This document shows positions 7,272-21,576 of a stretch of DNA of 32,917 bases, one piece after another (positions within the stretch are counted from its first letter, which is position 1; each line of letters starts with the position of its first letter). The notes under the pieces were generated by a model. The model was not told the DNA's origin. It saw only the letters and a program-made list of their open reading frames with translations, and did no database searches. The position numbers and the translations under genes were made by a program. The DNA is from a virus: positions 1-32,917 of IMG/VR virus record IMGVR_UViG_3300026549_000035; one strand, given 5' to 3'.

Positions 7272-7320
7272 CTTTATCAGCTCCTCTCTTTTTTCTATAT
7301 ATATTATATCATGTTTTAAA

Positions 7321-7790: not shown

Positions 7791-7848
7791 TGAGGTTAAT
7801 TCTCAACCCTTTATAAGTTTGTGTAGCGGTTTGGATTTTGAGGAAAAG

Positions 7849-8250: not shown

Positions 8251-8319
8251 TTTTCGATCGTCCTTTCGTCTTTCGTTAATACTATTATAGCACATCAGCC
8301 CGGGCTTGTCAAGCCTTTT

Positions 8320-8481: not shown

Positions 8482-8545
8482 TTTAGTTTTCTCCTCTCTC
8501 TTTACTATCTATATTATATCATGTTACGTGTCCTATAAACGGGAC

Positions 8546-8950
8546 TTAGAGAGCTACCGCTTCACCTTTTTCAGCTAAAGTGATTGCTTCATATCCAGCC
8601 TTTGTCCATTGGCGGGTATTCTTGGGGTCATCATCAACCAGAACGCCAACCTCACGGATAAAATCAACTTTGCGACCATAACCAACTATGCAGATAAAAT
8701 TTGCAAGTGCAAATTCGGGAATGTGCTTTGCAAGCCAATCAATTTTTCCCGCCTTGCCTGCTTCGTTGCGGGCTTTGGTCAGAATGTAAACCTTGACGCC
8801 TTCAGCGATAAGTCTGCGGACTGTTGAAACGTTCTCAGTGAATGGTTCAAGATTTGCCATAGCTTCACGGCTTGCGGCAGTGTTTTTGTCAGTAGCATAC
8901 GCTTTGTGGAAGTTGGCGAGAACGCCGTCCATGTCAAAGTAGTAAGTCAT
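8546..8950 (-). CDS. HAD-superfamily 5'(3')-deoxyribonucleotidase-like protein (134 aa)
   Basis: N-terminal motif YFDMDGVLANF (DxDGV, typical of NT5C-type nucleotidases). Start MTYYF after GGAGG. Promoter TTGACAtCCCGGGCtgtttggtgTATAAT. Confidence 0.8.
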   Translation of the reverse strand: MTYYFDMDGVLANFHKAYATDKNTAASREAMANLEPFTENVSTVRRLIAEGVKVYILTKARNEAGKAGKIDWLAKHIPEFALANFICIVGYGRKVDFIREVGVLVDDDPKNTRQWTKAGYEAITLAEKGEAVAL

Positions 8951-9093
8951 TTTTCGATCCTCCGTGTCTTTCATTGTCTTAATTATACACCAAACAGCCC
9001 GGGATGTCAAGCGTTTTTTGAAAAAAAATATTTTTTGTTAAAATGCACAAATTGGGAATATAGAATTTGTGCAACATTTAGCGCATTTTTCTC

Positions 9094-9122
9094 TTGACTT
9101 TTGGTGGGAGGTGTAGTATAAT
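9094..9122 (+). promoter_or_regulatory. Plus-strand sigma-A type promoter TTGACT-17-TATAAT driving a ~65-nt transcript antisense to the 3' end of gene 9181..9363
   Basis: TTGACTtttggtgggaggtgtagTATAAT. The transcript has hairpin GGGGCG..CGCCCC and terminates in the 10-bp stem ATAAGCGGAT..ATCCGCTTAT (9160-9184), shared with the convergent gene. Confidence 0.55.
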
Positions 9123-9180
9123 ATTTCGGGGCGCCACGCCCCTGATCGGTGACAAAAAAATAAGCGGATTTGCGATCCGC

Positions 9181-9363
9181 TTATCTGTGCCAGATTTTGA
9201 GGCTTGAAGCATACCGACCGAGGGGATACGTGCGAACCTCTTGTAGTTCAACATAAGAAACTTTGCCGACTTTTGAATTGAAGTAAGCAAGCGCCTCATC
9301 ATAGTTACGGAAAGCCTCATCTTCTCTAAAATTCCAAGTCACTACATAAAACATTTCTTTCAT
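9181..9363 (-). CDS. Small protein (60 aa), member of a 56-65 aa paralog family (with 12185..12355 and 13783..13980)
   Basis: Promoter TTGACAagCCCGGGCttttgatgTATAAT and RBS AAAGGAAAGAGG. Shares the YFN..V..ELK..IW pattern with 12185..12355. Confidence 0.6.
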   Translation of the reverse strand: MKEMFYVVTWNFREDEAFRNYDEALAYFNSKVGKVSYVELQEVRTYPLGRYASSLKIWHR

Positions 9364-9454
9364 TTTTCTTACCTCTTTCCTTTATCTTATGTATACATTA
9401 TACATCAAAAGCCCGGGCTTGTCAAGCCCTTTTATTGGACTTTGTAAAATTTTT

Positions 9455-9622
9455 TTATTTGCTCCAATCAGGGTTGAAAACCACAAAACCGTTGACATTT
9501 TTTGCGACTTCTTCTGCTTTGTCTGCGTTATCAAACGCACCCCAAAACCAGTCAGCACCGTCGCACTCTCTCGCTACGATGTAGGGAAAATCATCGGCGT
9601 AATCAGGCACATTCTTAATCAT
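9455..9622 (-). CDS. Small acidic protein (55 aa; MIKNVPDYADDFPYIVARECDGADWFWGAFDNADKAEEVAKNVNGFVVFNPDWSK)
   Basis: Missed by the ORF track. RBS AAGAGAGGAG. Promoter TTGACAaactcgatctcttggggTATACT, preceded by GGTTACAA..GTTACAA direct repeats. The overlapping plus-strand ORF 9389..9655 is an artefact. Confidence 0.5.
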   Translation of the reverse strand: MIKNVPDYADDFPYIVARECDGADWFWGAFDNADKAEEVAKNVNGFVVFNPDWSK

Positions 9623-9727
9623 TTTTCAAGCTCCTCTCTTAACTTTCTATACTAAGTATACCCCAAGAGATCGAGTTTGTCAAGCATTTTTTGAGATTGT
9701 AACTAATTTGTAACCTTTTGGATAATA

Positions 9728-9856
9728 AAAAAAATGAGGGCTTGCGCCCTCGGTGCTGACTTGCTCTCAGCTGGAACAGAGCTTTGTTTTAAGTGCGCCC
9801 ACCACTCGTAGTGTCGGCTGGTTTTTAGGTGTGCTCTGTTTCTCCCTTCACCCTAC
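9728..9856 (-). ncRNA. Candidate small RNA (~125 nt): consensus promoter, no AUG anywhere in the transcript, classic intrinsic terminator
   Basis: Promoter TTGACTtttataacataatcgtgTATAAT (-10 at 9863-9868). Terminator GAGGGCgcaaGCCCUC plus U8 at 9727-9752. Internal stem CAGAGC..GCUCUG. Confidence 0.5.
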
Positions 9857-9894
9857 AAGTAGATTATACACGATTATGTTATAAAAGTCAAGCA

Positions 9895-10095
9895 TTTTTT
9901 GAAATTGTAACTATTTTGTAACCTTTGCATACCCATGCATAATTATGCATACTTTCGGGATTTAATACTTTAGTGTGTTAAAGTGCATAATTATGCACTT
10001 TATTGTTGTAGCACTTTAACGCGCTAAAATCGGCGCGGGTCGATCGTAGGCGCGCCGCCGAAACAAAGTCCAATAAAATGGACTGAATAATTATG
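9895..10095. promoter_or_regulatory. Palindrome-rich regulatory region: ATGCATAATTATGCAT (perfect 16-bp), GTTAAAGTGCATAATTATGCACTTTA, GCACTTTAACG, TTGTAAC repeats, GC hairpin GGCGCG..GCGCGCC
   Basis: Read directly from the sequence. Shares TACTTTCGGGATTTA and the motif families with 7560-7790. Confidence 0.45.
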
Positions 10096-10117
10096 CAAAA
10101 AAAAATGCGGTCACCGC

Positions 10118-10375
10118 TCAGGGGAAAATCTGAGCGGTGATGTCAACGACAATCCAGCGAGAGCCGTCCTCAGAGAGGGAGCGTTCCCAGACCAAACCGC
10201 AAGGGAGAAAAATGCGGTTTCTGCGTTCCCAGCCTCGAACTGCCATGTCAATGAACAGCTCGAACATCTGGCTCTGAGTGAGACCTTCGAAAAGGCTTCT
10301 GACGAACCACATCTGACCATCGTCAGGAACAAGGCTCAGCAGAGTGCGGTAGTGGTTAAAATCTTTCTTAGTCAT
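10118..10375 (-). CDS. Hypothetical protein (85 aa)
   Basis: RBS AAAGGAGGAA. Promoter TTGACT-17-TATAAT at ~10400-10440. C-terminal codons and the TGA stop are encoded inside the terminator stem CACCGCTCAG..CTGAGCGGTG followed by a U9 tract. Confidence 0.6.
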   Translation of the reverse strand: MTKKDFNHYRTLLSLVPDDGQMWFVRSLFEGLTQSQMFELFIDMAVRGWERRNRIFLPCGLVWERSLSEDGSRWIVVDITAQIFP

Positions 10376-10528
10376 GTTAGTTCCTCCTTTGGGGGGGTAG
10401 CCCCTCTTTCATTGTCTTTATTATAGCACACTCGGGCAAAAAAGTCAATAGTTTTTTCAAAGAAAGTATTCGTCAAAATATACAAATCGGGAATCTTTTT
10501 TGACTGTGAAGTTTGTGCATTTTGCGAA

Positions 10529-10557
10529 TTGATTTTTGCGGCGGGCTGTGGTATAAT
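10529..10557 (+). promoter_or_regulatory. Plus-strand promoter TTGATT-17-TATAAT driving a short transcript antisense to the 3' end of gene 10603..10911
   Basis: The transcript begins AATTTCCGGC and ends at hairpin GGATTAGC..GCTAATCC (10600-10620). The same architecture recurs at 9094 and 12477. Confidence 0.5.
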
Positions 10558-10602
10558 AATTTCCGGCTCTGGCGCCCGGGCACGGTGACGAAAAGAAAAG
10601 GA

Positions 10603-10911
10603 TTAGCAATACGCTAATCCCATTGTTTTCCAATTCAAAATTGAAATTTGATTGCATTTTCTTCCAATTGTCAGAGCCTCTCTTTTAGTATTAACTCTGT
10701 GACTTTTATCAACATAGTAAATACCATTTGAAAACCATACGCCGCAGTTTCCATTATACGCTTTTACTGCGTTTATTGCTTCTCTTGGGCTTGTCGTTTC
10801 AACGCCTTCCGTTGCAACCTGCCAGCCTGTTTTGTAGGTTGTGGCTTTTCCCTTTTTTAAGGTTAAGCCCTCATTTTCTTTAAGTTTCAGAATTGAACGA
10901 ATGTTAATCAT
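10603..10911 (-). CDS. Hypothetical protein (102 aa)
   Basis: Start MINIRS after AGAGAGGAG. Promoter TTGACTtttcgCTCGGGCtgtgcTATAAT at ~10935-10980. Confidence 0.6.
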   Translation of the reverse strand: MINIRSILKLKENEGLTLKKGKATTYKTGWQVATEGVETTSPREAINAVKAYNGNCGVWFSNGIYYVDKSHRVNTKREALTIGRKCNQISILNWKTMGLAYC

Positions 10912-11002
10912 TTTCTTATCTCCTCTCTTTATTGTGTCTTTATTATAGCACAGCCCGAGCGAAAAGTCAAGTGTTTTTTCAAAAAAAATAAAGGGCGTAT
11001 TT

Positions 11003-11272
11003 TTACGCCCATTGTAATTTTCCATCGACTACATAGATAACACTCTCTGCGCCATCGTATTCATCGACATAGTGGTCGGTGCAATTTTCGGGAAGCTCAA
11101 CAACTTTTAACTCAGCGTGAGTTCCATTTACATCTTCCCCTGCTTCTATTGCTGAGATTAACTCAGCATTATAGCGGAGTTCTTCACTATCATGAGAATC
11201 AATTCCAAGGCGGTCTGCCCATTCCTTAGATACGCTAAATCCACCATAGCAAGCATTGACAATTAATTTCAT
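11003..11272 (-). CDS. Hypothetical acidic protein (89 aa)
   Basis: RBS AAGAGAGGAG. Promoter TTGACTtttggatgcgtctatgcTATAAT at ~11285-11335. Stop overlaps terminator GGGCGTA..TACGCCC plus a T-tract. Confidence 0.65.
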   Translation of the reverse strand: MKLIVNACYGGFSVSKEWADRLGIDSHDSEELRYNAELISAIEAGEDVNGTHAELKVVELPENCTDHYVDEYDGAESVIYVVDGKLQWA

Positions 11273-11397
11273 TTTTTTTTATCTCCTCTCTTTATTGTAT
11301 CTTTATTATAGCATAGACGCATCCAAAAGTCAATAGTTAAATTGCACAAAGATGTGATAAGAATTCTGTGCAGATTGACGAATCCGCCCGGGCGCAA

Positions 11398-11544
11398 TTA
11401 ATAAGGCAGATACGCCTTTTTGTGTTTGCGTTCTGCCTTTCTCAGCTTACCTTTTTTTGTATCTTCTACTTTTGGAGCGAAGCCCACAAAAGTCGGTCCT
11501 CTGTGTTTTCTTTTTTCCTCGGTTTTCTTTGTCCTGTGGCTCAT
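11398..11544 (-). CDS. Small highly basic protein (48 aa; MSHRTKKTEEKRKHRGPTFVGFAPKVEDTKKGKLRKAERKHKKAYLPY), likely nucleic-acid binding
   Basis: Start after GGGGAG. Promoter TTGACAtttgaggggttttgtgcTATAAT. The 79-aa ORF-track version starts upstream of the promoter and is rejected. Confidence 0.5.
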   Translation of the reverse strand: MSHRTKKTEEKRKHRGPTFVGFAPKVEDTKKGKLRKAERKHKKAYLPY

Positions 11545-11587
11545 TTTTATCTCCCCTTTCATTGTCTTTATTATAGCACAAAACCCC

Positions 11588-11881
11588 TCAAATGTCAAGA
11601 GGTTTTTCAGAAAAAAGTTCTTTTTCTTCAATTTCATAGTCTAAGCCATCAAGATGGAAGAAAAAAGCCTTCTTTTTTAATAAAATTTTAAGCCATTCTT
11701 TACCATATAAGTTTTTTAAACTCAACCATTTAGAATAAATTGAATAATAGCTTGTATAATTTTCACTTAATCCCTTGTTATCAATAAGCCATTGGATTGC
11801 GCTTGCATGGCTGTCACAAACCGCTACAACCTCAGTAGTATCATCAAAACCGTAAGTTTCTGTAATTGTAAATACTGTCAT
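11588..11881 (-). CDS. Hypothetical protein (97 aa), co-transcribed after gene 11912..12097
   Basis: RBS AAAAGGAG. Last codons L-D-I then stop are encoded by the next promoter's -35 (cTTGACAtttga). Confidence 0.6.
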   Translation of the reverse strand: MTVFTITETYGFDDTTEVVAVCDSHASAIQWLIDNKGLSENYTSYYSIYSKWLSLKNLYGKEWLKILLKKKAFFFHLDGLDYEIEEKELFSEKPLDI

Positions 11882-11911
11882 TTTTATCGCTCCTTTTGGA
11901 TAGCTGAGGGG

Positions 11912-12097
11912 TTAACTCTCAGCCCACCAGTCAGCAGTTTTCATCTTTGCGATTTCGCCCTCTAAGCGGTCAAGGCTCAGATTGTTGTCGGGATAGCTTT
12001 CGCATTTTCTTGCGAAGTCAATAGTTTCGGGAGCTTCATGTCCGAACATTCTGATTACTTCGGTCAACATTTCTTCTCTTGTTCTTCTTTCTGTCAT
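11912..12097 (-). CDS. Hypothetical protein (61 aa)
   Basis: Promoter TTGACAagcaagggtttttgtgtTATAAT and RBS AAGGAAAGGAAG. Stop inside hairpin GGCTGAGAGTTAACCCCTCAGC. Confidence 0.6.
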   Translation of the reverse strand: MTERRTREEMLTEVIRMFGHEAPETIDFARKCESYPDNNLSLDRLEGEIAKMKTADWWAES

Positions 12098-12184
12098 TTT
12101 GATAACTTCCTTTCCTTTTTTCTGTCTTTATTATAACACAAAAACCCTTGCTTGTCAAGTGTTTTTTAAACAAAATCTGGCGTT

Positions 12185-12355
12185 TTATTTACGCCAGATT
12201 TCAATGCTCTGTGAGTAGTAGCGGTGACCATTGTCATCAACTGCTTTCAGTTCGCAGTAGGTGAAATTTCTCTTTACTCTGTTAAAGTAAGCTCTCGCTT
12301 TTTCCTCAGTGTTAAATTCCTCATAGGTTTTATAAGCAGATACTACAAATGTCAT
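12185..12355 (-). CDS. Small protein (56 aa), paralog of gene 9181..9363
   Basis: Start MTFVV after AAGGAAAGAGAGG. Promoter TTGACTttaaagacttttcatgcTATAAT. The ORF-track N-terminal extension is rejected. Confidence 0.55.
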   Translation of the reverse strand: MTFVVSAYKTYEEFNTEEKARAYFNRVKRNFTYCELKAVDDNGHRYYSQSIEIWRK

Positions 12356-12476
12356 TTTGTTTTCCTCTCTTTCCTTTTTTCTGTCTTTATTATAGCATGA
12401 AAAGTCTTTAAAGTCAATAGGCAAAGTGCACAAATCGGGAGCGCCCGAGCGCATGAAAGTTTGTGCATTTTGCCTA

Positions 12477-12505
12477 TTGATTTTGTGTGGGGATTGTGCT
12501 ATAAT
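12477..12505 (+). promoter_or_regulatory. Plus-strand promoter TTGATT-17-TATAAT, divergent from the promoter of gene 12185..12355. The inverted repeat TGCACAAA..TTTGTGCA (12427-12467) lies between the two -35 elements
   Basis: Transcript ATTTCCGGCUACGCC... ends at hairpin GGGCTGA..TCAGCCC (12542-12559), which is also the terminator of the convergent gene 12553..12903. Confidence 0.5.
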
Positions 12506-12552
12506 ATTTCCGGCTACGCCGATCGTCCTCGAAAATTAAAAGGGCTGATTGC

Positions 12553-12903
12553 TCAGCCCCAAAGTGAATTAACTGCTATTGAAAGAGACCCTTCTCGAAC
12601 ACCAGTTTCACTGTAACCATAGTATTTGCTATAATCTGTTTGATTTTTTTCTCCTCTTGCTTTAATCTCTGCTTGGATTCTACGCCAACCAATTTCAAAG
12701 CAATAATCTATAAACCATTCAGAATATCTATATTTTTCTCTTCTTGCTTTACTATAGGTCATAACAGCAATTTGATCATTAGGGTATTCTCTTTTTAACT
12801 GTTGCTTTAATGCTTGTAATTCCTCAATGTTAGTGGAGTGTTGGATAATTTTACAACCATCGTGAGAAGGTTTTTCGTTTACTTTAATTACTGCATACTC
12901 CAT
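12553..12903 (-). CDS. Hypothetical protein (116 aa)
   Basis: Promoter TTGACAagCCCGGGCtaatatgcTATAAT. RBS AAAGAGAGAGG. Confidence 0.65.
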   Translation of the reverse strand: MEYAVIKVNEKPSHDGCKIIQHSTNIEELQALKQQLKREYPNDQIAVMTYSKARREKYRYSEWFIDYCFEIGWRRIQAEIKARGEKNQTDYSKYYGYSETGVREGSLSIAVNSLWG

Positions 12904-13009
12904 GATTATTTTCCTCTCTCTTTACTGTGTTTTTATTATAGCATATTAGCCCGGGCTTGTCAAGCGTTTTTTGAAAAAAAATAAAAAAAATAAGACTGAT
13001 TGCTCAGTC

Positions 13010-13324
13010 TTATAAATCTTCATCCATAGCATCTTCATAACACTTTGAACAATAGATTTTATTATTAATTAAATCTTCAAGGCTATCACCGAGTCTTAGT
13101 TCCAAATCTAAGGCGGAAACTGTCTCGCCGCAATCAGGACAAATAAAGATTTTTTGCTCTCTCAGGAAAGTATCTATTCTTTTACCTTCGGCGCTAAGTC
13201 TTGATTTTTCTCTCTGGCGAATTTCTCCACGATATTTATAAACCTTAACATACTTTTCGTGATACTTTGTGTAATAATTATTGGCATAGTCTAGTGCGAG
13301 TTCAGCAATTTCTTTTCTTGTCAT
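13010..13324 (-). CDS. Hypothetical zinc-ribbon protein (104 aa; CPDCGETV...CSKCYED)
   Basis: Start MTRKEIAEL after AAGGAAAGAGAGG. Promoter TTGACAttttgCTCGGGCtatgcTATAAT. Terminator AAGACTGA..TCAGTCTT with a T-run at ~12975-13010. Confidence 0.6.
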   Translation of the reverse strand: MTRKEIAELALDYANNYYTKYHEKYVKVYKYRGEIRQREKSRLSAEGKRIDTFLREQKIFICPDCGETVSALDLELRLGDSLEDLINNKIYCSKCYEDAMDEDL

Positions 13325-13440
13325 TTTTATTTTCCTCTCTTTCCTTTTTTCTGTATTTATTATAGCATAGCCCGAGCAAAATGTCAAGTGTTTTTTGAAA
13401 ATTTTTTTTGTTAATTTTTTAACAATCCATTTCCATAAAT

Positions 13441-13465
13441 AAAAACCGCCGTAGCGGTTTTTATT
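13441..13465 (-). terminator. Intrinsic terminator AAAACCGC-CGTA-GCGGTTTT. A second copy lies at 13764-13786
   Basis: Stem ACCGC/GCGGT with a CGTA loop flanked by A and T runs. Shares the CCGTAGCGG core with repeats in 14150-15310. Confidence 0.6.
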
Positions 13466-13489
13466 TAATTAATCACAGTACATCCAAGT

Positions 13490-13642
13490 TTCAAGTTCTT
13501 TCAAAGATACACCAAGATACTTTGACGCTGACTTCCAGCTTTCATCCAGTTTATCAAAAAAGATATCGTTCTGTTCATCTGTTAAACTATTGATTTTGGC
13601 TTCTACCTTATTGTATGTTTTTGTTAATTTTTTGACTGTCAT
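13490..13642 (-). CDS. Small protein (about 50 aa; MTVKKLTKTYNKVEAKINSLTDEQNDIFFDKLDESWKSASKYLGVSLKRT)
   Basis: RBS AAGAGAGGAG. Promoter TTGACAttttaCTCGGGCtatgtTATAAT. A +1 frame would extend it to 13468 across an A4/T5 run, so the 3' end is uncertain. Confidence 0.4.
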
Positions 13643-13782
13643 TTTTATTATCTCCTCTCTTTATCTTGATTACATTATAACATAGCCCGAGTAAAATGTC
13701 AAGTGTTTTTTTGAAAAAAATAAAAATTTTTTTTGTTAAATTTTTAACAATTTTTCCCAAAATTAAAACCGCCGTAGCGGTT

Positions 13783-13980
13783 TTAATCCATGTGTTCTTG
13801 GCGAACTACAAAGAACTTGTCGACCTTAGTCCAGTCAACCTTGTCACCGTTCCAGAGTCTTGCGGGTTTGGTAGCGTTCAGAGTGTTTACCTCAGCCTCG
13901 GCTCTTTCCACGGTCTTGTAGGTTTCGTATGCGAGATAGCTCTCACCAGTCTTGGTAGTGTAACAGATAGCAGTTGTCAT
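13783..13980 (-). CDS. Small protein (65 aa)
   Basis: Promoter TTGACAtttcctgtaattcatgtTATAAT. RBS AAGGAAAGGAAG. Followed by the CCGTAGCGG terminator. Confidence 0.55.
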   Translation of the reverse strand: MTTAICYTTKTGESYLAYETYKTVERAEAEVNTLNATKPARLWNGDKVDWTKVDKFFVVRQEHMD

Positions 13981-14204
13981 TTTAATACTTCCTTTCCTTT
14001 TTTCTGTCTAAATTATAACATGAATTACAGGAAATGTCAATAGTCAAATTGCACAAAGATAATCGCTAAAAAAAGGTTGGTTTTGTGCATAGTGCCCAAT
14101 TAGGGCTGTGCCGACCGTTGACGTAGATTGTTAATTATTTAACAATCTATCCCCAACCTGTGTCTAACTGATAGATGTTGACACCGTAGCGGTTTACATC
14201 ATTG

Positions 14205-14365
14205 TGTGTATAACACTGTTGTTCTGTGTGTGATACTCTCTCTTTGTCTTTGTGTGTGTTGTGCTTCTCTCTCTCTCTCTTTGCTTCTCTTTGTGTGTAT
14301 GCTTCTCTCTCTCTCTCTCTTTGCTTCTCTCTTACTCTCTTTGAGTGTGTCACACACACAAACGC
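14205..14365. repeat. Low-complexity CT/GT-rich tract with ~38-bp tandem units (GCTTCTCTCTCTCTCTCTTTGCTTCTCTTTGTGTGTAT-like)
   Basis: Read directly from the sequence. Lies 3' of gene 14374..14703. The overlapping ORFs in both strands here are low-complexity artefacts. Confidence 0.7.
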
Positions 14366-14373
14366 CTTGCCCC

Positions 14374-14703
14374 TTAGTCAGCAAAAGGGTCAAGGCGCAC
14401 ACTCAAGATTTCATCATCATAGATGGTTGAAGTTCCCTGATTATCCATGAGTACAATAACAGAGTTATCTTTTTGAAAATTTTCTGTTCCAAAGAACTCC
14501 CAAATCTCTCCATGAGAATCTTCTATTTGAACAGTGTCCGAGGCTGTATCTACATCTACTACTTTAGCCTGCATGGTGTAATTAGTATCATTAGTCGTGG
14601 GTGAACTTGCGCGATAAATAAGACATACTACAAAAATGGTAACTATTACCAAATGTGTTACTACGCAGATGTTAATGATTGCATAGAATGTTTTGTTTTC
14701 CAT
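14374..14703 (-). CDS. Membrane-anchored protein (109 aa; N-terminal TM helix, beta-rich C-terminal domain)
   Basis: Promoter TTGACAagaagccaagagtatgcTATAAT, preceded by the TGCACAAA..TTTGTGCA inverted repeat. RBS AAAGAGAGAGAGG. Confidence 0.65.
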   Translation of the reverse strand: MENKTFYAIINICVVTHLVIVTIFVVCLIYRASSPTTNDTNYTMQAKVVDVDTASDTVQIEDSHGEIWEFFGTENFQKDNSVIVLMDNQGTSTIYDDEILSVRLDPFAD

Positions 14704-14995
14704 GGGTGATTGTCCTCTCTCTCTTTATTGTATCTTTATTATAGCATACTCTTGGCTTCTTGTCAATAGTCAAATTGCACAAAGATAGTATTAGTCTTTT
14801 GTGCATTTTGCCAATAGCACAAACGTTCGAACGCTCCCCCAATCTTGGCACTACGCTGATGGGAGCGTGTGCCGTAGCGGTTACTGGGGCTGTAGGTTGG
14901 TTAGCCAATGCTAACTTAATAGGGAGATTACCCTAATTAGTAAAATAGGGGTTAGGTATTGCTAACTCAATTCAAACAAAAGTTCGAACAAACGT

Positions 14996-15036
14996 CCAGC
15001 CTGTGCGTTGGCTGATAGGAGCCAGCACCGTAGCGG
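14996..15036. repeat. 41-bp direct repeat, copy 2 (CCAGCCTGTGCGTTGGCTGATAGGAGCCAGCACCGTAGCGG). Copy 3 is at 15267-15307 and a diverged copy 1 at 14154-14193
   Basis: 37 bp are identical between copies 2 and 3. All copies end in the CACCGTAGCGG motif. Confidence 0.8.
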
Positions 15037-15625
15037 CATAGCAAGATGCACAAAGAGCCGCAATAGATTTTGTATAGTTTTACCAATCGTTAGAGATTCA
15101 GCAAGAGGGTCGTGCTTCATGGGGGTTTACACAAAAAATTATCGAAGAGCTTATTACACGCAAACTACGGTCGTTGCGCCCAGTAACGACCGTAGCAAAA
15201 CTAACTATCTCGTTTTAGGCGTGGCTAATCTTCACAGAGTTAGCCTTAGCTAATTGGTCTCATACTCCAACCTGTGCGTTGGCTGATAGGAGCCAGCACC
15301 GTAGCGGTTCATTCATTGGGGGTATTTAACTTACCCCAGGGTGTTTGACAGGGGTGAGATGCGACAGTAGGCCCTAGCATTTTTTCTCAATCAGCAATAC
15401 TTTTTATATATTTTTAATGAGATAAAAATGGAAAGAGGGGGGCACTATTTCGGGAAAAAATTTTTTTTAAAGAGAAAAAATTTTTTTGTCTGACCAAAAC
15501 TATCTTGAAACTAATTTTCATTTTCAATTACGATATCAGGAAAAATATTCTTCCCTCTTCTTTTTTTACCTTTTTCAAAAAAAATATGCCGGCCGCAATT
15601 ATCGCCACCGACATTCGAATTATCA

Positions 15626-15913
15626 TTAAACATTACGCACAAATACATGCCAAACTAATCCATCATCCATTTGAACTGTTCCTATATAATCTCCAATATA
15701 ACCATATTTACATCCCGTTCCCAAAACAGTAATTTCCACGGTTATTTTTTCATTTTCTTTCCGATGTTTTCCACTGTACTTTTCTATATGATTTTCAGCC
15801 CACATTACTAAATTATTGTTTTGTTTTCCAACTGTAAAAATTCCAGTAAACCAACCTTTAATTCTTACACATCCGCCTTCTGGAAGAATATATTTGTACA
15901 TTACTTTTTTCAT
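15626..15913 (-). CDS. Hypothetical protein (95 aa) in the AT-rich block
   Basis: Start MKKVMYK after AAAGGATGA. Promoter TTGATT-17-TATAAT at ~15930-15960, back-to-back with the plus-strand promoter at 15973-16001. Confidence 0.55.
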   Translation of the reverse strand: MKKVMYKYILPEGGCVRIKGWFTGIFTVGKQNNNLVMWAENHIEKYSGKHRKENEKITVEITVLGTGCKYGYIGDYIGTVQMDDGLVWHVFVRNV

Positions 15914-15972
15914 AAAAAAATCATCCTTTTTTTTTATTTTTATTATATAATATTTTTTTAAATTAATCAAAT

Positions 15973-16001
15973 TTGACAGAAGAAAAATTTTTTGTTATAA
16001 T
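15973..16001 (+). promoter_or_regulatory. Sigma-A type promoter TTGACA-17-TATAAT for the first plus-strand gene
   Basis: TTGACAgaagaaaaattttttgtTATAAT, then GGAGG and the ATG at 16031. Confidence 0.65.
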
Positions 16002-16030
16002 TCTATTAGAGACTGGAGGTAAGATAATAA

Positions 16031-17078
16031 ATGATAAAACTTGATTATTCTTTAACTTCTCCAGAAGATAGAAATAAATTAGTAAAAAAAATACTCGAAG
16101 AAAATCCTGACCCAGGAGAAAAATATCTAGAAATTTTGGCTGATTACCTTATCTTCGCCATGGAGAAAGAAGAAAAAAAGAAAAAGAAAATTCTTACTGA
16201 AAATAGGATGACTACCGTAAATAAGAGAGAAACATCTTTTGAAGGTCTTGTCGCTCAATTGGAAAATGGCGAAGATGGTATATATAATTTAATAACAAAC
16301 AATAAACAAGTAATATTTCAACCAAAAGTAACAATAACAAAAAAAGATTTAGCAGACATTCCCCCTCTTCGTGAATTGCGCGAGACTATTAGTAATTGGG
16401 AAACAAAATTAAAAACGGCTGAAGGTAAGGATCGTTTTATTATTAAAAAGGCGCTGATAGAAATGCGCAAAGACCAATACATAATAAAAAATTCTTATCG
16501 ACAACCAATTATCCCAAATAAAATAACAAGGTCTTCTAGTTATATCCATTTAGATGATAACACTAACGCATTTGATGAAGAGGGGTATCCTATTTCTGAA
16601 GGATTTTCCTTAATGAATCCAAAAGTTTGTGAAGCTATTTTATGCAACTATTCTCGATTAAAGCAAGATGCGGAAGGAAAGTTTGAAGGCGATACTTGGT
16701 ATATAATCTATGATTTTGAAAATCTTTGCGAAAAAGCCTTAGAAAAATATCCTTTATATATGCGCTTAGTCGAATATAAAATTGATGGTATGCAAAACAT
16801 TGATATTTAGGTTTAGCTTCAATTAGAGTTTGGAATTAAACATAGCGTAGAATACATCTCAAGTTTATGGCGCAATAAAATTCCTAAATTAATTGCGTCC
16901 GCAGCTGAAGATGAATATTTAGACTGGTATTATTTAAATATTGCTAAAGGAAAATATAAAAAATGTAGTCGATGCAACGAAATTAAACTTGCGCACAATA
17001 AATATTTTAGCAAAAATAAAACCAGTAAAGATGGTTTTTATAGTATATGTAAAAGTTGTCGAAATAAGAAAAAAACTT
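16031..17078 (+). CDS. Hypothetical protein. A 259-codon TAG-free body, then tandem in-frame TAG-GTT-TAG (16808, 16814), then an 88-codon C-terminal zinc-ribbon tail (CSRCNEI...CKSCRNKKK) ending at TGA
   Basis: The frame stays open through both TAGs and encodes a plausible CxxC...CxxC domain. The overlapping ORF 16941..17279 in another frame has no RBS. Readthrough depends on TAG being a sense codon. Confidence 0.55.
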
Positions 17079-17146
17079 GACATTGGGCAAAAATTCCAAA
17101 TTAAGGCTAGTTATTTATTATATTTTAATGAAAAGGAGGAATTTTT

Positions 17147-17908
17147 ATGCCTAGTGATGGCAAACAATATTATTGTGAAAAATGTAATAGAACAATGGCT
17201 GCCGAATAGTTTTATTCTTCAAACAATTTGGAGAAATATCCTAACGACGGCAAATTTCCTATGTGCAAAAAATGTATGACAATGCACGTAGACAATTGGA
17301 ATCCAGATAGTTATATGTGGATTATTCAAGAAGCAGATGTTCCATATATCCCAGAAGAGTGGAATAAATTAATGGCTTCATATGCGAAAGATCGTAATAA
17401 AGTCACTGGTATGACTATAATTGGGCGATATCTTTCTAAAATGAAATTAAAACAATTTAGAGATTATCGATGGAAAGATACCGAATTTTTACAAGAGCTT
17501 GCGAAATCTAAAAGAGAATAGATTATGAAGGAGCAAGGATATGATGCTCAATAGATTGCGCTCGCAAATGAAAGAGCTTCTTTCGAGGTCCCTTAGAATA
17601 TTGCGATTCCTGACCTTGCGGCTGAGCCTGTTAATCCGTTCCTTGCGTCTGGAACAGAAGATTATTTTGCAGATTAGTCGGGCGCAAGTGATGATGATAT
17701 TGATTTAACAGACGAAGATAAACTTTATCTTCGTTTAAAATGGGGAAAAACTTATAAGCCAGAGGAATGGGTAAAACTTGAATAGTTATATAATGATATG
17801 ATGAATTCATATGATATTCAAGGAGCAGGACATGAAGATAATCTTAAACTTTTATGTAAAACATCTCTTAAGGCAAATCAATTAATTGATATTGGGGATA
17901 AATCTTAA
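17147..17908 (+). CDS. Hypothetical zinc-ribbon protein (~253 aa) with five in-frame TAG codons (the first at 17204)
   Basis: RBS AAAGGAGG. CxxC..CxxC motifs (YYCEKCNRT...MCKKCMT). TAA stop at 17906-17908, immediately before the intron-like element. Confidence 0.55.
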
Positions 17909-17914
17909 TCTATG

Positions 17915-19010
17915 TTCCCATAAAACTCTCTTAATTGCTGGAAACTCTTAAAGCATTATAAACTACATAGGAAATCTTTTTTAAGATTAAACTAGAATGT
18001 TTGAAAATTATAATGATATATAGACAATCAGCAGCCAAATTATTTAAAAAAGGAATGATCAAAAATAATGTTTAAACAATATTATAATACACCATACGAT
18101 ATTTATGAAGATGGTAGATGTTTTAGTCATTTATCAAATAAATTTTTAACGCCTAAAATGTCTGCTAAATATCCATCTTATAATTTAACTTTTGAAGGCA
18201 AAAAACGTTAGGTAAAAGTGCATCGGATGGTAGCAGAAACTTTTATTCCAAATCCAGAAAATAAGCCAATTGTAAATCATATGGATGGCGATACACATAA
18301 TTTTCATGTAAATAACTTAGAATGGGTTACTTTTAAAGAAAATAATTAGCATGCTTATAATACTGGATTAAGAAAAAATGGTAATCAAACAATTAATAAA
18401 TATATAAGTAATTTACCTAATGAAGAATGGACTGATATAAAAAATTATCCAAATTATTTAATCTCTTCATATGGACGTATTATGAATAAAAGAACTAAAA
18501 GATTATTAAAGCTTTATATAAATCATAATGGATATTATAATGTAAATTTATGGAAAAATAATAAAGGAAAAACTTTACAAGTTCATCCTTTAATTTATTC
18601 TAATTTTACAAAAGATTATGATTTAAAAAACTATGTTATTAATCATAAAGATGGTAATAAACAAAATAATCAAATTTCTAATTTAGAAAAAATTACTTAT
18701 CAAGAAAACAATTTTCATGCTAGCTATATAATAAAGACACATAAACAAGAAAAACCTGTTTATTAGTTAAATGATTAGTATGAAATTATTACATCATTCC
18801 CTTCCATTGCATCCGCATAGCGTATAACCGGCATCTCAAATATTAGTAGAGCCATAAAAAAACAAGGTAAAGCTGGCGGTTATTATTGGAAATTTAAATA
18901 AAAGGTTCAACGACTATCCTAAATGGAGTAGGATACAAGCGTATCCGAAATGGAGAGTATTTATTTTATAGTTTGTAAATAAATAAAGATATAGTCTGAC
19001 CTTTATTGAA
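17915..19010 (+). mobile_element. Group I intron-like element carrying an HNH homing-endonuclease ORF. It has a 5' motif shared with two other elements and 3' ribozyme core R (GGTTCAACGACTATCC) and S (AAGATATAGTCTGACC)
   Basis: R and S elements at ~18903-19001. 5' element AACTCTCTTAATTGCTGGAAACTCTTAA at 17917. Homologous to the elements at 19775-20213 and 21577-22700. Exon junctions not resolved. Confidence 0.45.
18068..18766 (+). CDS. HNH homing endonuclease (~232 aa) with in-frame TAG at 18209 and 18347
   Basis: Motifs [40 protein letters not shown] and [17 protein letters not shown] are canonical HNH (HNH_3-like). RBS AAGGAA. Confidence 0.8.
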
Positions 19011-19048
19011 AAATAAAGAAAAAGTTTAGCGAACTTTAAAACAAAAAA

Positions 19049-19510
19049 ATGGTAGAAGGTTTCCAAAAGATGTCAAAAGTTTATGATTAGCTTATGAAGT
19101 CAGGCAAATTTACTGCAGCTTAGAATAAAGCTGAATCTGGTGAATATGTTGATTCTGTAGGTGAATTAGTAGCTATTTGTGAAAAAGATGGTTTTATTCC
19201 ACGTTATTATTTAGGAGAACCTAATGATAAAGTAGATTAGACTATTATTGATATGAAACGTTATACTCGTACCTTAATTACTGAAGAAACCAATCTTGGT
19301 AATCTTATTGAAGAAGCTATTAAAAATAACCAAAAAGAAGATGAAGAAGAACGCAATTCTAAGAATACTGATACTGGATTATTAGATGTTGAAGAATTAG
19401 AAGAACAATTGCGTGATGAAGACTTTGAAGAGTATAGTGAATTTTTAGATAATGAAGAGGCTAGTGATGCTGACCTTTTAAATTTCTTAACTGAAAATGG
19501 AGGTTAGTAA
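19049..19510 (+). CDS. Putative small terminase subunit (~153 aa, acidic C-terminus) with four in-frame TAG codons
   Basis: Immediately upstream of the large terminase, whose RBS is embedded in its end. The weak RBS of this gene suggests coupling or a splicing relationship with the upstream intron-like element. Confidence 0.4.
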
Positions 19511-19512
19511 TT

Positions 19513-19774
19513 ATGGCTTTACAAGATTTATTAGATATTAATACTAAACGATAGAAAATAGGTTTATCTGAAGAGCGCATTGAAGCTATAAAACCTGCGC
19601 TCAGGAAGTATATTGCGTTTTGGCGAGAATACCCAGACCTTTTTATTGATTTTTTAGTAAGAGGTCCTCGAACAGAAGTAAAAGAAGGAGAATTTCATTT
19701 CTATTTTTATTAGAGAGTTTTTCTTCGTTGTGTTATGCGACATTAGTATGTATATGCCGTATTCCCTCGTGCGT
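19513..19774 (+). CDS. Large terminase subunit, exon 1 (N-terminal ATPase segment up to the Walker A region ...MRHQYVYAVFPRA)
   Basis: RBS GGAGG. Two in-frame TAG codons. The reading frame closes at 19804. The exon end is approximate. Confidence 0.6.
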
Positions 19775-20213
19775 CAAAAAGTGGCGCCAATATTATTTTT
19801 CACTAATTGTGGAAAATTTTGGACAAAACTTCTCTAATTGTGGGAACTCTAAATTCATATGAATTATGAACAAGAGAATCCAGAGTAAATATAAAAGAGG
19901 AGTATGTTTAAATATAAAATTAGATAGTAGTAGTATTACAAAATGCTGCAAAGGGAAATTAAAAACTATAGGTGGTTTTATATTTAAATATGCTTAATTT
20001 TTATAAATCTTTAACGACTATCCTGAAAAAGTCTCCGAGGGATAATAAGTAGAGGCAATAGGAGTAGGGCGCAAGCAAATGGCGTGGGTGAGAGTCCCTT
20101 AAATCGAAAAGAGAAGATTTATTATATTTTATAATAAATGTGAGATAGTCTATTCTTATAGGAAACTATAAGCAGTTCATAAGAGAACGTAATGGAAGTT
20201 GCGATTCCATTAG
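19775..20213 (+). mobile_element. ORF-less group I intron interrupting the large terminase gene
   Basis: 5' element AACTTCTCTAATTGTGGGAACTCTAAATT (19826). R-like TTTAACGACTATCC (20012) and S-like GAGATAGTCTATTC (~20150), followed by P9-like hairpins CTTATAG..CTATAAG and TAATGGAA..TTCCATTA. Exon 2 resumes in a different frame (...DSKSFLSVMALMVRAILYPRANLFVTSGGKEQ). Boundaries approximate. Confidence 0.55.
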
Positions 20214-21574
20214 AATATTAAGACAGTAAATCATTTTTATCTGTTATGGCATTAATGGTTAGAGCAATTCTTTATCCTAGAGCTAATTTATTTGTTACCT
20301 CAGGAGGAAAAGAATAGGCTGCGGGTATCTTAAAAGATAAAGTAAATGAAATATGCACTTTAATTCCTGCACTCGATAGAGAAATTGACCGAAGAAGAGG
20401 TAAAACCCTTGAAGGTAAAGACTATTGTAAATATGTTTTTAGAAATGGGTCTACTTTAGATAATATTGCGGCGAGAGAAAGTTCTAGAGGTAAACGTCGA
20501 CATGGCGGGCTTGTAGAGGAGTGCGTTGGTGTTGATGATTAGATTTTACGAGAAGTAATTATTCCTGTTATGGCAATTCCTCGTCGTTGTATGGATGGTA
20601 GCACATAGGAAACTGAAACATTAAATAAAAGTTAGGTATTTGTTACTACTGCTGGATATAAAGGAACTTATCCATATGAGCGTTTAATTGGTTTTTTAGT
20701 GCGTATGGTTACCCAGCCAGAACGATGTGTAGTTATAGGTGGAACATGGCGATTACCAGTAGAAGTTGGATTACAAAGTAAAACTTTTATTAAAGACCAA
20801 AAAGATGAAGGAACCTTTAATGAAGCTTCTTTCGAACGTGAATATGAATCACGTTGGACTGGTGATGTAGAAGATGCTTTCTTTAATGCTGATATGTTTA
20901 ATAGAAATCGTATTTTAAAACAACCTGAGTATGAAGCTTCTGGTCGTTCTAGTAAAAATTAGTATTATATTATTTCTGTTGACGTAGGTCGTAAAGGCTG
21001 TGATACTGTATGTTGTATTTTTAAAGTATCTCCTTAGCCACAAGGACCTTCTTTAAAATCATTAGTTAATATTGAAATTATTAGTAATGAACACTTTGGT
21101 GACTAGGCTCTTGAATTAAAGAAATTATATTATAAATATAATGCAAGAAGAATTGTAATAGATGGTAATGGACTTGGAATTGGCTTAATTGATTATATGG
21201 TTAAACCTTCTATAGACCCAGAAACAAATGATGTTTTGCCTGATTTTGGAGTATATGGCGGAACTCAAGATGATGCGGCGGATGAATATAAAAAATATAG
21301 AACATCTGACTGTGAATAGGATGCTATTTATATTATAAAAGCTAATGCTCCAATTAATACAGAAGCACATGCTAATGCTTAGGTAAACTTGTCTTCTGGA
21401 AAAGTAAAAATGTTAATTGACGAACGTGATGCTAAAATAAAATTATTAGGAACTAAAGTCGGTCAAAATATGAAACCTGAAGAAAGGTCAATTTATTTAA
21501 AACCATTTACATTAACTTCCATATTAAAAGAGGAAATAGAATTCATTGTTTCCCTATATAGAAATATATAGTAA
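20214..21574 (+). CDS. Large terminase subunit, exon 2 (rest of the ATPase domain plus the C-terminal RNase H-like nuclease domain), with ~12 in-frame TAG codons
   Basis: Nuclease motifs YYIISVDVGRKGCDTVCCIFKV and RIVIDGNGLGIGLIDYMV. Ends TAG-TAA at 21569-21574, followed by terminator-like hairpin CTCTAAcugcGGGaaaCCCcTTAGAG plus a T5 run. Confidence 0.65.
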
Positions 21575-21576
21575 AA

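What the first reader, a model, noticed from the sequence alone, without database searches (positions are those of the whole stretch)
14100..15500. Structured non-coding transition region with perfect 37-bp direct repeats and CCGTAGCGG motifs
Between the early and late modules lie: a GT/CT low-complexity tandem tract (14205-14365); three copies of CCAACCTGTG..CTGATAG..CACCGTAGCGG (14154, 14996, 15267; the last two identical over 37 bp); a 70-nt hairpin GCACAAACGTTCGAACGCTCCC..GGGAGCGTGTGC (14812-14880) containing the palindrome CGTTCGAACG; further CCGTAGCGG copies (14870, 15029); and hairpins GGTCGTT..AACGACC and GGCTAA..TTAGCC. There is no credible ORF. The CCGTAGCGG core is also the loop-stem of the terminators at 13441 and 13764. 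Candidate functions are an origin, a packaging or partition site, or a large structured RNA.
Basis: seen in the sequence. Interest (0 to 1): 0.65.

Follow-up and report, generated by a model that had tools for sequence, protein, structure and literature searches.

The report
Origin-like non-coding region of recoded phage
Between the early and late genes of a large uncultured phage that reads TAG as an amino acid lies an ~830-bp gene-free stretch with a family-wide conserved core and lineage-specific repeated hairpins; it most resembles a replication origin or control region, but its function is unproven.

Summary
The repeats are real. CCGTAGCGG occurs 6 times, all on the + strand (0.04 expected). 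The composite hairpin unit occurs 4 times, not 3. The interval is not one object, and "no credible ORF" is wrong.

14100-14790 is ordinary early-gene furniture: consensus sigma-A promoters, a real 109-aa gene (14703..14374, - strand), a slippage-prone CT/GT tract, and one hairpin unit.

14790-15620 is truly ORF-free and lacks a consensus promoter. It has two layers:
- A single-copy core (15437-15534: G-run, A6T8 tract, 37-39-bp iteron-like block) is found in the same place and orientation in 59 of 80 related phage loci. The iteron-like block is tandemly expanded in about 10 of them.
- A flank restricted to one narrow clade is built of hairpins. Stems change by compensatory substitutions while three boxes stay fixed. 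Units are exchanged, lost or decayed between relatives.

There is no Rfam, tRNA, phage-database or pseudogene match.

Best reading (~0.35): a replication origin or control region, analogous in position and evolution to the lactococcal c2-type ori. Rivals are a non-coding RNA, a transcription-control array, a pac site, and recombination debris. Sequence alone cannot tell whether it acts as DNA or as RNA.

The parts
13436..13467 (-). Intrinsic terminator AAAAACCGC-UACG-GCGGUUUUU of an early cassette. It carries CCGTAGCGG.
   Evidence: Perfect 14-nt arms (I12). The - strand RNA folds at -16.6 kcal/mol for the sister copy.
13763..13786 (-). Second copy of the same terminator, after the 65-aa gene 13980..13783. 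It is the standard terminator of this clade.
   Evidence: (D10). The same sequence occurs 1-3 times per locus in every clade relative.
14012..14040 (-). Consensus early promoter TTGACA-N17-TGnTATAAT for the 65-aa gene.
   Evidence: 12/12 match. It is one of 28 such leftward promoters.
14035..14061 (.). 27-bp block TGTCAATAGTCAAATTGCACAAAGATA, identical to 14761-14787. It holds the -35 of the leftward promoter, one arm of the TGCACAAA/TTTGTGCA inverted repeat, and a weaker rightward promoter-like site.
   Evidence: D14, 100%. (+ strand, 9/12 sites at 14034 and 14760).
14127..14145 (.). Palindrome TTGTTAATTATTTAACAA. It recurs upstream of neighbouring early promoters and is a probable operator or UP region.
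   Evidence: D5, I4, I5.
14153..14194 (.). Hairpin unit D (CCAACC..CTGATAG..CCGTAGCGGTT). It sits where other cassettes have their terminator.
   Evidence: A compensatory A-T to G-C change is seen in L211/L213/L214/L217.
14205..14365 (.). CT/GT low-complexity tract enclosed by a 19-bp inverted repeat (14222-14240 / 14343-14361). It lies in the 3' untranslated region of the 109-aa gene.
   Evidence: I8. Its length varies between strains and it is the most diverged segment, 13-32%.
14374..14703 (-). Real gene: a 109-aa protein with an N-terminal hydrophobic segment and no Pfam family.
14738..14766 (-). Consensus early promoter of the 109-aa gene. It is the rightmost of the leftward consensus promoter series.
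14776..14805 (.). Inverted repeat TGCACAAA(N14)TTTGTGCA next to the -35. It is conserved in the clade and present in more distant relatives such as L001.
   Evidence: H0.
14825..14832 (.). Palindrome GTTCGAAC. A second copy lies at 14982-14989. Each sits 7-9 nt left of a hairpin unit (A and B), and both are kept in the most diverged relatives.
14839..14882 (.). Hairpin unit A.
   Evidence: L212 shows two compensatory pairs plus a bulge shift. L232 shows a decayed copy.
14996..15038 (.). Hairpin unit B. It has the same stem as unit C in the window but an A-type stem in L212 and L232.
   Evidence: A compensatory C-G to T-A change separates L212 from L232.
15165..15195 (.). 11-bp hairpin CTACGGTCGTT-GCGCCCAGT-AACGACCGTAG. 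It is the probable ortholog of the G+C-rich hairpin found left of the core across the family. Only on the - strand is it followed by a T-rich run (UUUGCGUGU).
   Evidence: H6, compensatory changes in L207 and L212; T-A to C-G in L232.
15267..15309 (.). Hairpin unit C. It is absent in L232.
   Evidence: The contigs L202 and L206 break at units B and C. L208 lacks the 271 bp between B and C.
15316..15436 (.). Semi-conserved left arm of the family element (GGGGTG, CAATACTTTTTATA).
15437..15534 (.). Single-copy, family-wide core: GGGGGG-N6-TTTCGGG, an A6T8 tract, A6T7-GTCTGACC, and the iteron-like block ATCTTGAAAC..ATTTTCATTTTCAATTACGA.
   Evidence: 59 of 80 loci, always the + strand, one per locus; at least 3.5 tandem copies in L057. 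The fold z-score is only about -2.
15577..15614 (-). Strong intrinsic terminator (12-bp interrupted stem plus U8) ending the DUF7352 transcript before it reaches the core.
15626..15913 (-). DUF7352 gene (95 aa) with its own promoter at 15942-15970. It forms the right border of the non-coding region. The rightward consensus promoter of the sigma-factor gene lies at 15973-16001.

Best explanation
The interval contains two different things.

14100-14790 is normal early-region furniture. It holds consensus host-type promoters, the clade's standard terminator motif, one real small gene and a hypervariable CT/GT tract.

14790-15620 is an ~830-bp spacer with no ORF and no consensus promoter. It lies between the last leftward early cassette and the divergent DUF7352/sigma-factor promoters. 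I read it as the phage's cis-acting replication-control region, that is, its origin.

The proposed mechanism has two parts.
- The single-copy core (15437-15534) would supply a binding block for an initiator. This is the 37-39-bp iteron-like unit, present once here and in 2 to at least 3.5 tandem copies in relatives. Next to it lie an AnTn tract that is easily bent or melted and a G/C run.
- The adjoining hairpins (units A-C, the 15165-15195 hairpin, and the two GTTCGAAC palindromes) would be recognition, priming or transcription-stop signals. They would act once the region is single-stranded or transcribed.

Shown: location, absence of ORFs, single-copy family-wide conservation with fixed orientation, tandem expansion of the block, compensatory maintenance of the hairpins, and rapid lineage-specific turnover of the flank.

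Inferred: everything about replication itself. No initiator protein, start site or replication activity has been observed.
For: 1. Position. The region sits between the leftward early array (28 near-consensus promoters, the last at 14766) and the rightward sigma/late module.
2. No coding capacity. No ORF with a ribosome-binding site exists under code 11 or with TAG as sense. Six-frame translation gives no protein similarity to the 80 related loci.
3. Core conservation. The core is unique in the 33-kb window. It occurs once per locus, always on the sigma strand, in 59 of 80 relatives. It is therefore a unique cis site, not a general promoter.
4. Iteron behaviour. The right block is tandemly repeated 2-3 times in 9 loci and at least 3.5 times perfectly in L057.
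5. Inconsistent transcription context, which argues for DNA-level action. In the window a strong terminator insulates the core from the right. L042/L047/L049 have a perfect rightward promoter. Most relatives have no consensus promoter nearby. The core folds no better than shuffles, z about -2.
6. Selected hairpins. At least 7 compensatory events are seen in units A, B, D and the 15165-15195 hairpin. The family hairpins are all Watson-Crick.
7. Flank turnover. The flanking sequence differs completely between lineages while always being repeat- or hairpin-rich (L001, L002, L229). The functionally proven Ceduovirus ori types behave the same way. They lie between the early and late clusters, are non-coding, are flanked by early promoters, and form three mutually unrelated sequence types (PMC7150918).
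Against: - No replication gene or initiator is adjacent.
- The window has only one copy of the iteron-like block.
- The lowest-G+C stretch is at 15900-16100, not in the core.
- GC skew turns here, but gene orientation turns here too, so the skew is uninformative.
- Divergence of 14790-15340 is 7-25%. That is only equal to, or somewhat below, third-codon-position divergence of neighbouring genes, so constraint on the flank as a whole is weak.
- Some hairpins decay (TAGGG/CCCTA and GGCTAA/TTAGCC). Unit C is dispensable (L232).
- The family hairpin has a T-rich 3' flank only on the - strand. That fits a plain terminator and an RNA-level reading equally well.
Confidence: 0.35

Rival explanations
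1. It is a non-coding RNA gene, in one of two forms. The first is a leftward RNA of about 330 nt. It would start at a weak conserved promoter-like site (TTGAAA-N17-GATAGT, 15527-15499) or arise by read-through. It would run through the core and unit C and end at the 15165-15195 hairpin. It would display C-rich motifs (CCCCCC, CACCCC, CUCCU loops) able to pair with ribosome-binding sites. The second form is a rightward structured RNA of about 0.75 kb, starting from the weak promoter at 14760-14789.
For: - The family-wide G+C hairpin is followed by a T-rich run only on the - strand.
- YYGAAA-N17-GATWNT is conserved in the right block.
- 14790-15370 folds with z = -4.1 on either strand.
- Hairpins are kept by compensation while loops stay conserved.
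- L232's decayed unit A keeps pairing mostly through G.U pairs on the + strand.
- The TAGGG/CCCTA hairpin keeps pairing only as - strand RNA.
- L042/L047/L049 have a perfect + strand promoter reading into the element.
Against: - The strand signals contradict each other: 17 G.T-type against 19 A.C-type mismatches.
- The core itself is not structured, z about -2.
- Conservation in the core is of contiguous sequence blocks and A/T tracts, not of pairings.
- Tandem multiplication of the putative promoter block is odd for a promoter.
- No Rfam family matches; the best E-value is 1.8.
- No consensus promoter is present in most relatives.
Confidence: 0.25
2. It is a transcription-control array for the early-to-middle switch. 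The hairpin units share 12 nt (AAACCGCUACGG on the - strand) with the 5' arm and loop of the clade's standard early terminator. A phage factor that binds this sequence, in RNA or DNA, could modulate termination at those terminators. The units would act as loading sites or decoys. The GTTCGAAC and TGCACAAA palindromes would be operators.
For: - The shared 12-mer, and the position of unit D exactly where a terminator is expected.
- All copies have the same orientation as early transcription.
- A conserved linear box followed by a covarying hairpin with a conserved loop resembles the lambda boxA-boxB layout (own knowledge).
- The palindromes are conserved in L212 and L232.
Against: - Units A-C lie upstream of, not inside, any transcript predicted from consensus promoters.
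- No candidate binding protein is identified.
- Sharing with the terminator can be explained by common descent and gene conversion.
- This reading does not explain the family-wide core.
Confidence: 0.15
3. It is a packaging recognition site (pac or cos-like). The terminase small subunit would bind the repeated block next to an intrinsic bend, about 1.6 kb upstream of the packaging genes.
For: The site is unique and orientation-fixed, with an A-tract bend and tandem repeats. It lies close to the YonG_N-like, TerL and portal genes. One Logan contig (L203) ends exactly in the G-run at 15441.
Against: The ends of related contigs do not coincide with the element. Most assemblies read straight through it. 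A sigma gene and other genes lie between it and the packaging genes. A single contig end is weak evidence.
Confidence: 0.1
4. The clade-specific part (14812-15310) is recombination debris. Gene-less remnants of shuffled promoter/terminator cassettes would be kept only because they are harmless.
For: - The early region is a cassette array with indels at cassette borders between relatives.
- Units are exchanged by gene conversion, deleted or decayed.
- Divergence is close to the synonymous level.
- The segment is absent from L001 and L002.
Against: - Compensatory substitutions keep units and the 15165-15195 hairpin paired.
- The box sequences and their 16-nt spacing are invariant at 25-30% divergence.
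- The ~915-930-nt spacer length is kept in L209-L211, L213, L214 and L232.
- G+C is 46% in a 30% genome.
- There is no pseudogene signal.
Confidence: 0.1

Closest known systems
Origin region of lactococcal Ceduovirus (c2-type) phages
   Same: It is a non-coding region between divergently oriented early and late gene clusters, bounded by early promoters, with no ORF or ribosome-binding site. It is highly conserved within a lineage but unrelated between lineages: three ori types that are functionally equivalent. A structured non-coding transcript is implicated in initiation (PMC7150918 and the references cited there).
   Different: There is no sequence similarity. Here a family-wide core does exist. 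No consensus promoter reads into the region in this clade. Replication activity is untested. The genome is about 177 kb rather than 22 kb.
Iteron origins with single-strand initiation hairpins (RSF1010 oriV with ssiA/ssiB; G4-type ssi signals). Comparison from own knowledge.
   Same: It combines tandem direct-repeat blocks, a G/C-rich segment, an A/T-rich segment and hairpins of about 40 nt. Hairpin sequence is conserved at defined positions while the stems only need to pair.
   Different: All hairpins here point the same way. The iteron is single in the window. No primase or initiator link has been shown. No homology was tested or expected.
PeSL promoter-terminator cassettes of T4-type phages
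   Same: Small early genes are each flanked by a near-identical early promoter and a stem-loop terminator. The cassettes serve as recombination points, producing indels between close relatives (PMC2839356, PMC4122927). This describes 13300-14800 and the behaviour of the units: deletion in L208 and conversion in L212.
   Different: The host type (Gram-positive-style extended -10) and the sequences are different. The hairpin units lack a U tract and are not attached to promoters or genes.
Lambda nut sites (boxA plus boxB) and RNase III processing hairpins of SP82/T7 early RNAs. Comparison from own knowledge.
   Same: A conserved linear box lies next to a hairpin whose stem varies while its loop is conserved. 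The motif is repeated in the early region in the direction of early transcription.
   Different: Three of the four units lie outside predicted early transcripts. The stems are 8-10 bp with a bulge, which is short for RNase III. No N-like protein has been identified.

Membership tests
Any Rfam family (riboswitch, ribozyme, group I/II intron, sRNA, large ncRNAs) | Covariance-model score at or above the family's gathering threshold | tested here: not met
   The only hit in the window is tRNA at 4004-4075. Within 13900-15700 the best E-value is 1.8, at 19 bits against a threshold of 41.5.
tRNA / tmRNA (including a suppressor tRNA for TAG) | Cloverleaf detected by ARAGORN or the Rfam tRNA model | tested here: not met
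   Only tRNA-Lys(UUU) at 4001-4075 is found. The 20 closest related loci have none.
Intrinsic (rho-independent) terminator | G+C-rich hairpin immediately followed by a U tract | tested here: not met
   For units A-D, a hairpin is present but no U run follows on either strand. The criterion is met by 13436-13467, 13763-13786 and 15577-15614. It is only weakly met by 15165-15195 on the - strand.
PeSL-like early cassette array | Repeated early promoter plus stem-loop flanking small ORFs | tested here: met
   28 leftward promoters have at most 1 mismatch to the consensus. Terminators and intergenic blocks are repeated. This holds by analogy only; there is no homology to T4 PeSLs.
PeSL-like early cassette array | Indels or replacements between close relatives bounded by the cassettes | tested here: met
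   L203, L204 and L210 differ from the window by replaced or deleted segments between conserved intergenic blocks. L208 has a deletion exactly between units B and C, although assembly collapse is not excluded.
Phage replication origin (c2-type / iteron-type) | Non-coding region at the early/late divergence, without ORF or ribosome-binding site | tested here: met
Phage replication origin (c2-type / iteron-type) | Tandem direct repeats (iterons) next to an A/T-rich unwinding tract | tested here: inconclusive
   A6T8 and A6T7 tracts are present. The iteron-like block is single in the window, occurs 2-3 times in 9 relatives, and at least 3.5 times in L057.
Phage replication origin (c2-type / iteron-type) | Supports autonomous or phage-dependent replication; coincides with the replication start or coverage peak | not testable with these tools
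   Requires cloning or read-depth analysis of the raw reads.
CRISPR array / solitary repeat units | Regularly spaced identical repeats of 28-37 nt with spacers of 30-40 nt; similarity to host repeats | tested here: not met
   Unit spacings are 688, 156 and 271 nt. The unit pattern gives only 4 scattered hits in 185,579 genomes, about the number I estimate chance would give for a pattern of this specificity.
cos/pac packaging site | Coincides with virion DNA ends or the first packaging cut | not testable with these tools
   The only indirect evidence is from contig ends. These do not cluster on the element, apart from L203 ending at 15441.
Protein-coding gene or pseudogene in 14790-15620 | ORF with start codon and ribosome-binding site, or translated similarity to relatives | tested here: not met

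The most novel reading that the evidence does not exclude
The hairpin units may be a new class of protein-recognised nucleic-acid module, co-opted from the phage's own early terminator. Each has three boxes at a fixed 16-nt spacing and a freely covarying stem. In this reading the whole 14790-15540 segment is transcribed as a structured RNA of about 0.7 kb. That RNA would prime replication at the G-run/A-T-tract core, in the manner of ColE1 RNA II or c2 PE1-T. Alternatively it would titrate a termination or antitermination factor. Either way it would time the switch from standard-code early genes to TAG-recoded late genes.
Probability: 0.15. Interest if true: 0.75.

Novelty: new variant of a known kind. 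Interest (0 to 1): 0.45.

Why it matters
Large TAG-recoded gut and rumen phages are uncultured, and nothing is known about their origins of replication or their non-coding control elements. This work defines a single-copy element that is easy to recognise. Its consensus is GGGGGG-N6-TTTCGGG-AnTn ... CTGGNC ... CTAAA-N3-ATTTT-N-ATTT ... ACG. It marks the early/late junction across a whole phage family.

If it is the origin, it gives three things:
- an anchor for read-depth replication analysis in metagenomes;
- a part for building shuttle replicons for hosts that cannot yet be manipulated;
- a case of an origin flank that turns over rapidly while a core persists.

The hairpin units are a clean natural example of stem covariation combined with gene conversion inside a single locus.

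If the region is only regulatory furniture, the result is still useful. It removes a false 'giant structured RNA' call and corrects a missed gene.

Tried and rejected
- Known RNA families, at gathering and at permissive thresholds, gave nothing.
- Searches for tRNA or a suppressor tRNA gave nothing in the region or in 20 relatives.
- DNA similarity to 50,697 phage records gave nothing.
- A loose pattern scan of IMG/VR returned only one-per-contig chance hits. The strict three-box pattern found 0 in IMG/VR. In JGI metagenomes it found only clade members plus 3 unrelated hits. In genomes it found 4 scattered hits, about the number I estimate chance would give. This rejects a host repeat, a CRISPR mimic and a widespread mobile element.
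- The hidden-gene idea fails under code 11 and with TAG as sense: no ORF has a ribosome-binding site. The pseudogene idea fails too, as six-frame tblastn against 80 loci gave nothing.
- Assigning an RNA strand from G.U asymmetry was inconclusive, 17 against 19. RNAalifold on five close relatives gave 1-2 compensatory and 17-18 broken pairs on each strand.
- The core is not a general late or middle promoter. Profile searches find no second copy in the 33-kb window.
- I first took unit C to be the ortholog of the family-wide hairpin, because of the shared TTGGCTG. I dropped this after L232 showed that unit C is dispensable. The 15165-15195 hairpin matches better in stem length, in loop (GCGCCCAGT against GCGCCTGTC) and in flank.
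- The poly-T at the window start is not a genome end. Relatives continue into an HD-domain gene there.
- The paper on phAss-1 (PMC10607447) contained nothing relevant. The primary c2 ori papers are not held.
Full report
**Context**

The window is part of a large phage. An identical stretch lies on ENA contig ERZ27252065:k141_7166, which is 177,555 bp long. From 16031 rightward, long + strand ORFs appear only if TAG is read as sense. These ORFs encode a phage sigma factor (phrog_5767), a YonG_N-like protein, TerL, a portal protein and head proteins.

Leftward of 14766 lie 28 promoters on the - strand, each within one mismatch of TTGACA-N17-TGnTATAAT. Each drives a small gene. The only such promoter on the + strand (15973) drives the sigma gene. 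The finding therefore does sit at the early/late junction.

**Observation**

- CCGTAGCGG occurs six times, all on the + strand and all within 13449-15307, against 0.04 expected.
- The composite CTGATNG-N8-12-CCGTAGCGG occurs four times, against 0 expected. The units are D (14153-14194), A (14839-14882), B (14996-15038) and C (15267-15309).
- B and C are identical over 37 bp.
- Two copies of the 9-mer form the loop and 3' arm of the terminators at 13436-13467 and 13763-13786. Read on the - strand these are AAAACCGC-UACG-GCGGUUUU.
- The CT/GT tract is a real tandem array enclosed by a 19-bp inverted repeat.
- G+C is 45-47% against about 30% around it. 14790-15370 folds better than shuffles on both strands, z = -4.1.

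**What is not as described**

14374-14703 (- strand) is a gene. It has a perfect promoter, a GAGG ribosome-binding site, a 109-aa product with a hydrophobic N-terminus and 36 database homologues. Codon positions 1+2 diverge less than position 3 in every comparison.

The left part of the interval (14000-14790) is thus a pair of ordinary early cassettes. Unit D sits exactly where neighbouring cassettes carry their terminator.

On the right, a strong terminator (15577-15614, - strand, U8) ends the DUF7352 transcript. This leaves about 780 bp with no ORF, no translated similarity to relatives and no consensus promoter.

**Known families**

There is no Rfam match, no tRNA and no match among 50,697 phage records.

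**Comparative layer 1: the family**

The sigma factor retrieved 80 related loci from IMG/VR, at 58-81% amino-acid identity. Only 15316-15533 is alignable to them.

Its core (15437-15534) reads GGGGGG-N6-TTTCGGG, then A6T8, then A6T7-GTCTGACC, then ATCTTGAAAC-TAATTTTCATTTTCAATTACGA. It is found in 59 of 80 loci, always once per locus, always on the sigma strand, and 0.3-5 kb upstream of sigma. Many of the remaining loci are cut off upstream of sigma.

The right block behaves like an iteron. It has 2-3 tandem copies in nine loci. One 118-kb contig (L057) starts inside at least 3.5 perfect 39-nt copies.

The core has no second copy in the 33-kb window, so it is not a general promoter. It is not significantly structured, z about -2. 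Its transcription context is inconsistent:
- it is insulated by a terminator in this clade;
- a perfect rightward promoter reads into it in L042/L047/L049;
- most relatives have no consensus promoter nearby.

Left of the core, most relatives have one G+C-rich hairpin with a 7-11-bp all-Watson-Crick stem. The stem sequence differs from phage to phage. The loop is related (TTTGGCTGTCA, GCGCCTGTC and similar). The 3' flank is T-rich only on the - strand. The window's 15165-15195 hairpin is its likely ortholog, and it too shows compensatory changes.

**Comparative layer 2: the clade**

Relatives found through the 109-aa protein and by pattern search keep the same spacer of about 915-930 nt. They are 7-30% diverged.

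The unit boxes (CCAAYC, CTGATRG, CCGTAGCGG) and their 16-nt spacing persist. The stems change while staying paired:
- unit D: A-T to G-C in L211/L213/L214/L217;
- unit A in L212: two compensatory pairs plus a bulge shift;
- B-type stem: C-G to T-A between L212 and L232;
- the 15165-15195 hairpin: T-A to C-G in L232, with further compensatory changes in L207 and L212.

Unit types also swap positions. In L212, B has the A-type stem and D has the C-type stem. Assemblies break at B and C. L208 lacks exactly the B-C interval. L232 lacks unit C and has a decayed unit A.

Other local hairpins (TAGGG/CCCTA and GGCTAA/TTAGCC) are not maintained. Overall divergence of 14790-15340 is close to, or somewhat below, third-position divergence of flanking genes.

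Mismatches that would be G.U on the + strand and those that would be G.U on the - strand are equally common, 17 against 19. No RNA strand can therefore be assigned.

The strict unit pattern is absent from IMG/VR. It is absent from 185,579 genomes apart from 4 scattered hits, about the number I estimate chance would give for a pattern of this specificity.

More distant lineages carry quite different repeat sets at this position. L001 has a GT-rich tract. L229 has 42-nt tandem repeats plus CTTTA/TAAAG inverted-repeat arrays.

**Interpretation**

The facts to be explained are these:
- a unique, orientation-fixed, family-wide DNA block with A/T tracts and an expandable direct repeat;
- a position at the early/late divergence;
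- a fast-evolving flank that is always repeat- or hairpin-rich, and in which particular hairpins are under selection for pairing.

The best single fit is a replication origin or control region. The closest documented parallel is the Ceduovirus ori. It is non-coding, lies between the early and late clusters, is bounded by early promoters, exists in three mutually unrelated but functionally equivalent sequence types, and involves a structured non-coding transcript (PMC7150918).

The early cassettes themselves behave like T4-type PeSLs (PMC2839356, PMC4122927). That explains the gene conversion and deletions among the units.

I put the origin reading at about 0.35. The rivals are:
- a non-coding RNA, either leftward (core to the 15165-15195 hairpin) or rightward (about 0.75 kb), at about 0.25;
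- a termination/antitermination control array exploiting the 12 nt shared between units and terminators, at about 0.15;
- a pac site, at about 0.10;
- recombination debris, at about 0.10.

Nothing here demonstrates replication, transcription or protein binding. Those steps are inferred.

**Verdict**

The finding is real and uncharacterised, but it is a composite. Part of it is ordinary. The remarkable repeats are lineage-specific and partly dispensable.

It is a new variant of a known kind of phage non-coding control region. It is moderately interesting, and directly testable with read-depth and strand-specific RNA data.

Noticed in passing
window 16031-32917 (+ strand): Late genes form long ORFs only if TAG is translated; total ORF length nearly doubles. 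Early - strand genes do not need this. No suppressor tRNA is present in the window; the only tRNA is tRNA-Lys(UUU) at 4001-4075.
   Followed up: partly
window 17900-19051 and 21538-22711; also 19511-20221: Two insertions of about 1.15 kb, each carrying an HNH/NUMOD endonuclease ORF, split a YonG_N-like gene (phrog_3314) and TerL. Both are precisely absent from relative L217. Their flanks carry group-I-intron-like core motifs (AATTGCTGGAAAC, TCAACGACTATCC, GATATAGTCTGACC). A third set of such motifs lies at 19511-20221. Rfam does not detect them.
   Followed up: partly
window 98-14766 (- strand): There are 28 promoters within one mismatch of TTGACA-N17-TATAAT, nearly all with the extended -10 TG, about one per 500 bp. 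Relatives differ by cassette-bounded indels. This looks like a host-takeover-style hyperplastic early region.
   Followed up: partly
window 1-87: The window starts with about 87 T directly after a leftward promoter. In relatives (L224) an HD-domain gene follows that promoter, so the poly-T is probably a contig-end artefact. Two related large contigs (L007, L038) also end in poly-T.
   Followed up: partly
L057:1-110: A 118-kb related contig begins inside at least 3.5 perfect tandem copies of a 39-nt unit (AAAAAAATCTTGAAACGTATTTTGATTTCGA). This unit is homologous to the right block of the conserved core.
   Followed up: yes
L042, L047, L049, about 127 nt left of the core anchor: In this sub-lineage a perfect rightward promoter (TTGACA-N18-TGtTATAAT) reads into the hairpin and core. 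No such promoter exists in the other relatives.
   Followed up: partly
window 368-619 (- strand): An 83-aa early protein with a weak MazE/AbrB-like (PF04014) hit is identical in at least 56 blocks of the contig collection. It is far more widespread than its neighbours.
   Followed up: no
L229:1388-2007 (reverse complement shown): In a sister lineage the region upstream of the 109-aa-gene homologue carries three tandem repeats of about 42 nt, an alternating purine-pyrimidine tract, and a dense array of GCTTTA...TAAAGC inverted repeats instead of the hairpin units. Alternating Pu/Py or GT-rich tracts recur near the core in L001, L016, L023 and L074.
   Followed up: no
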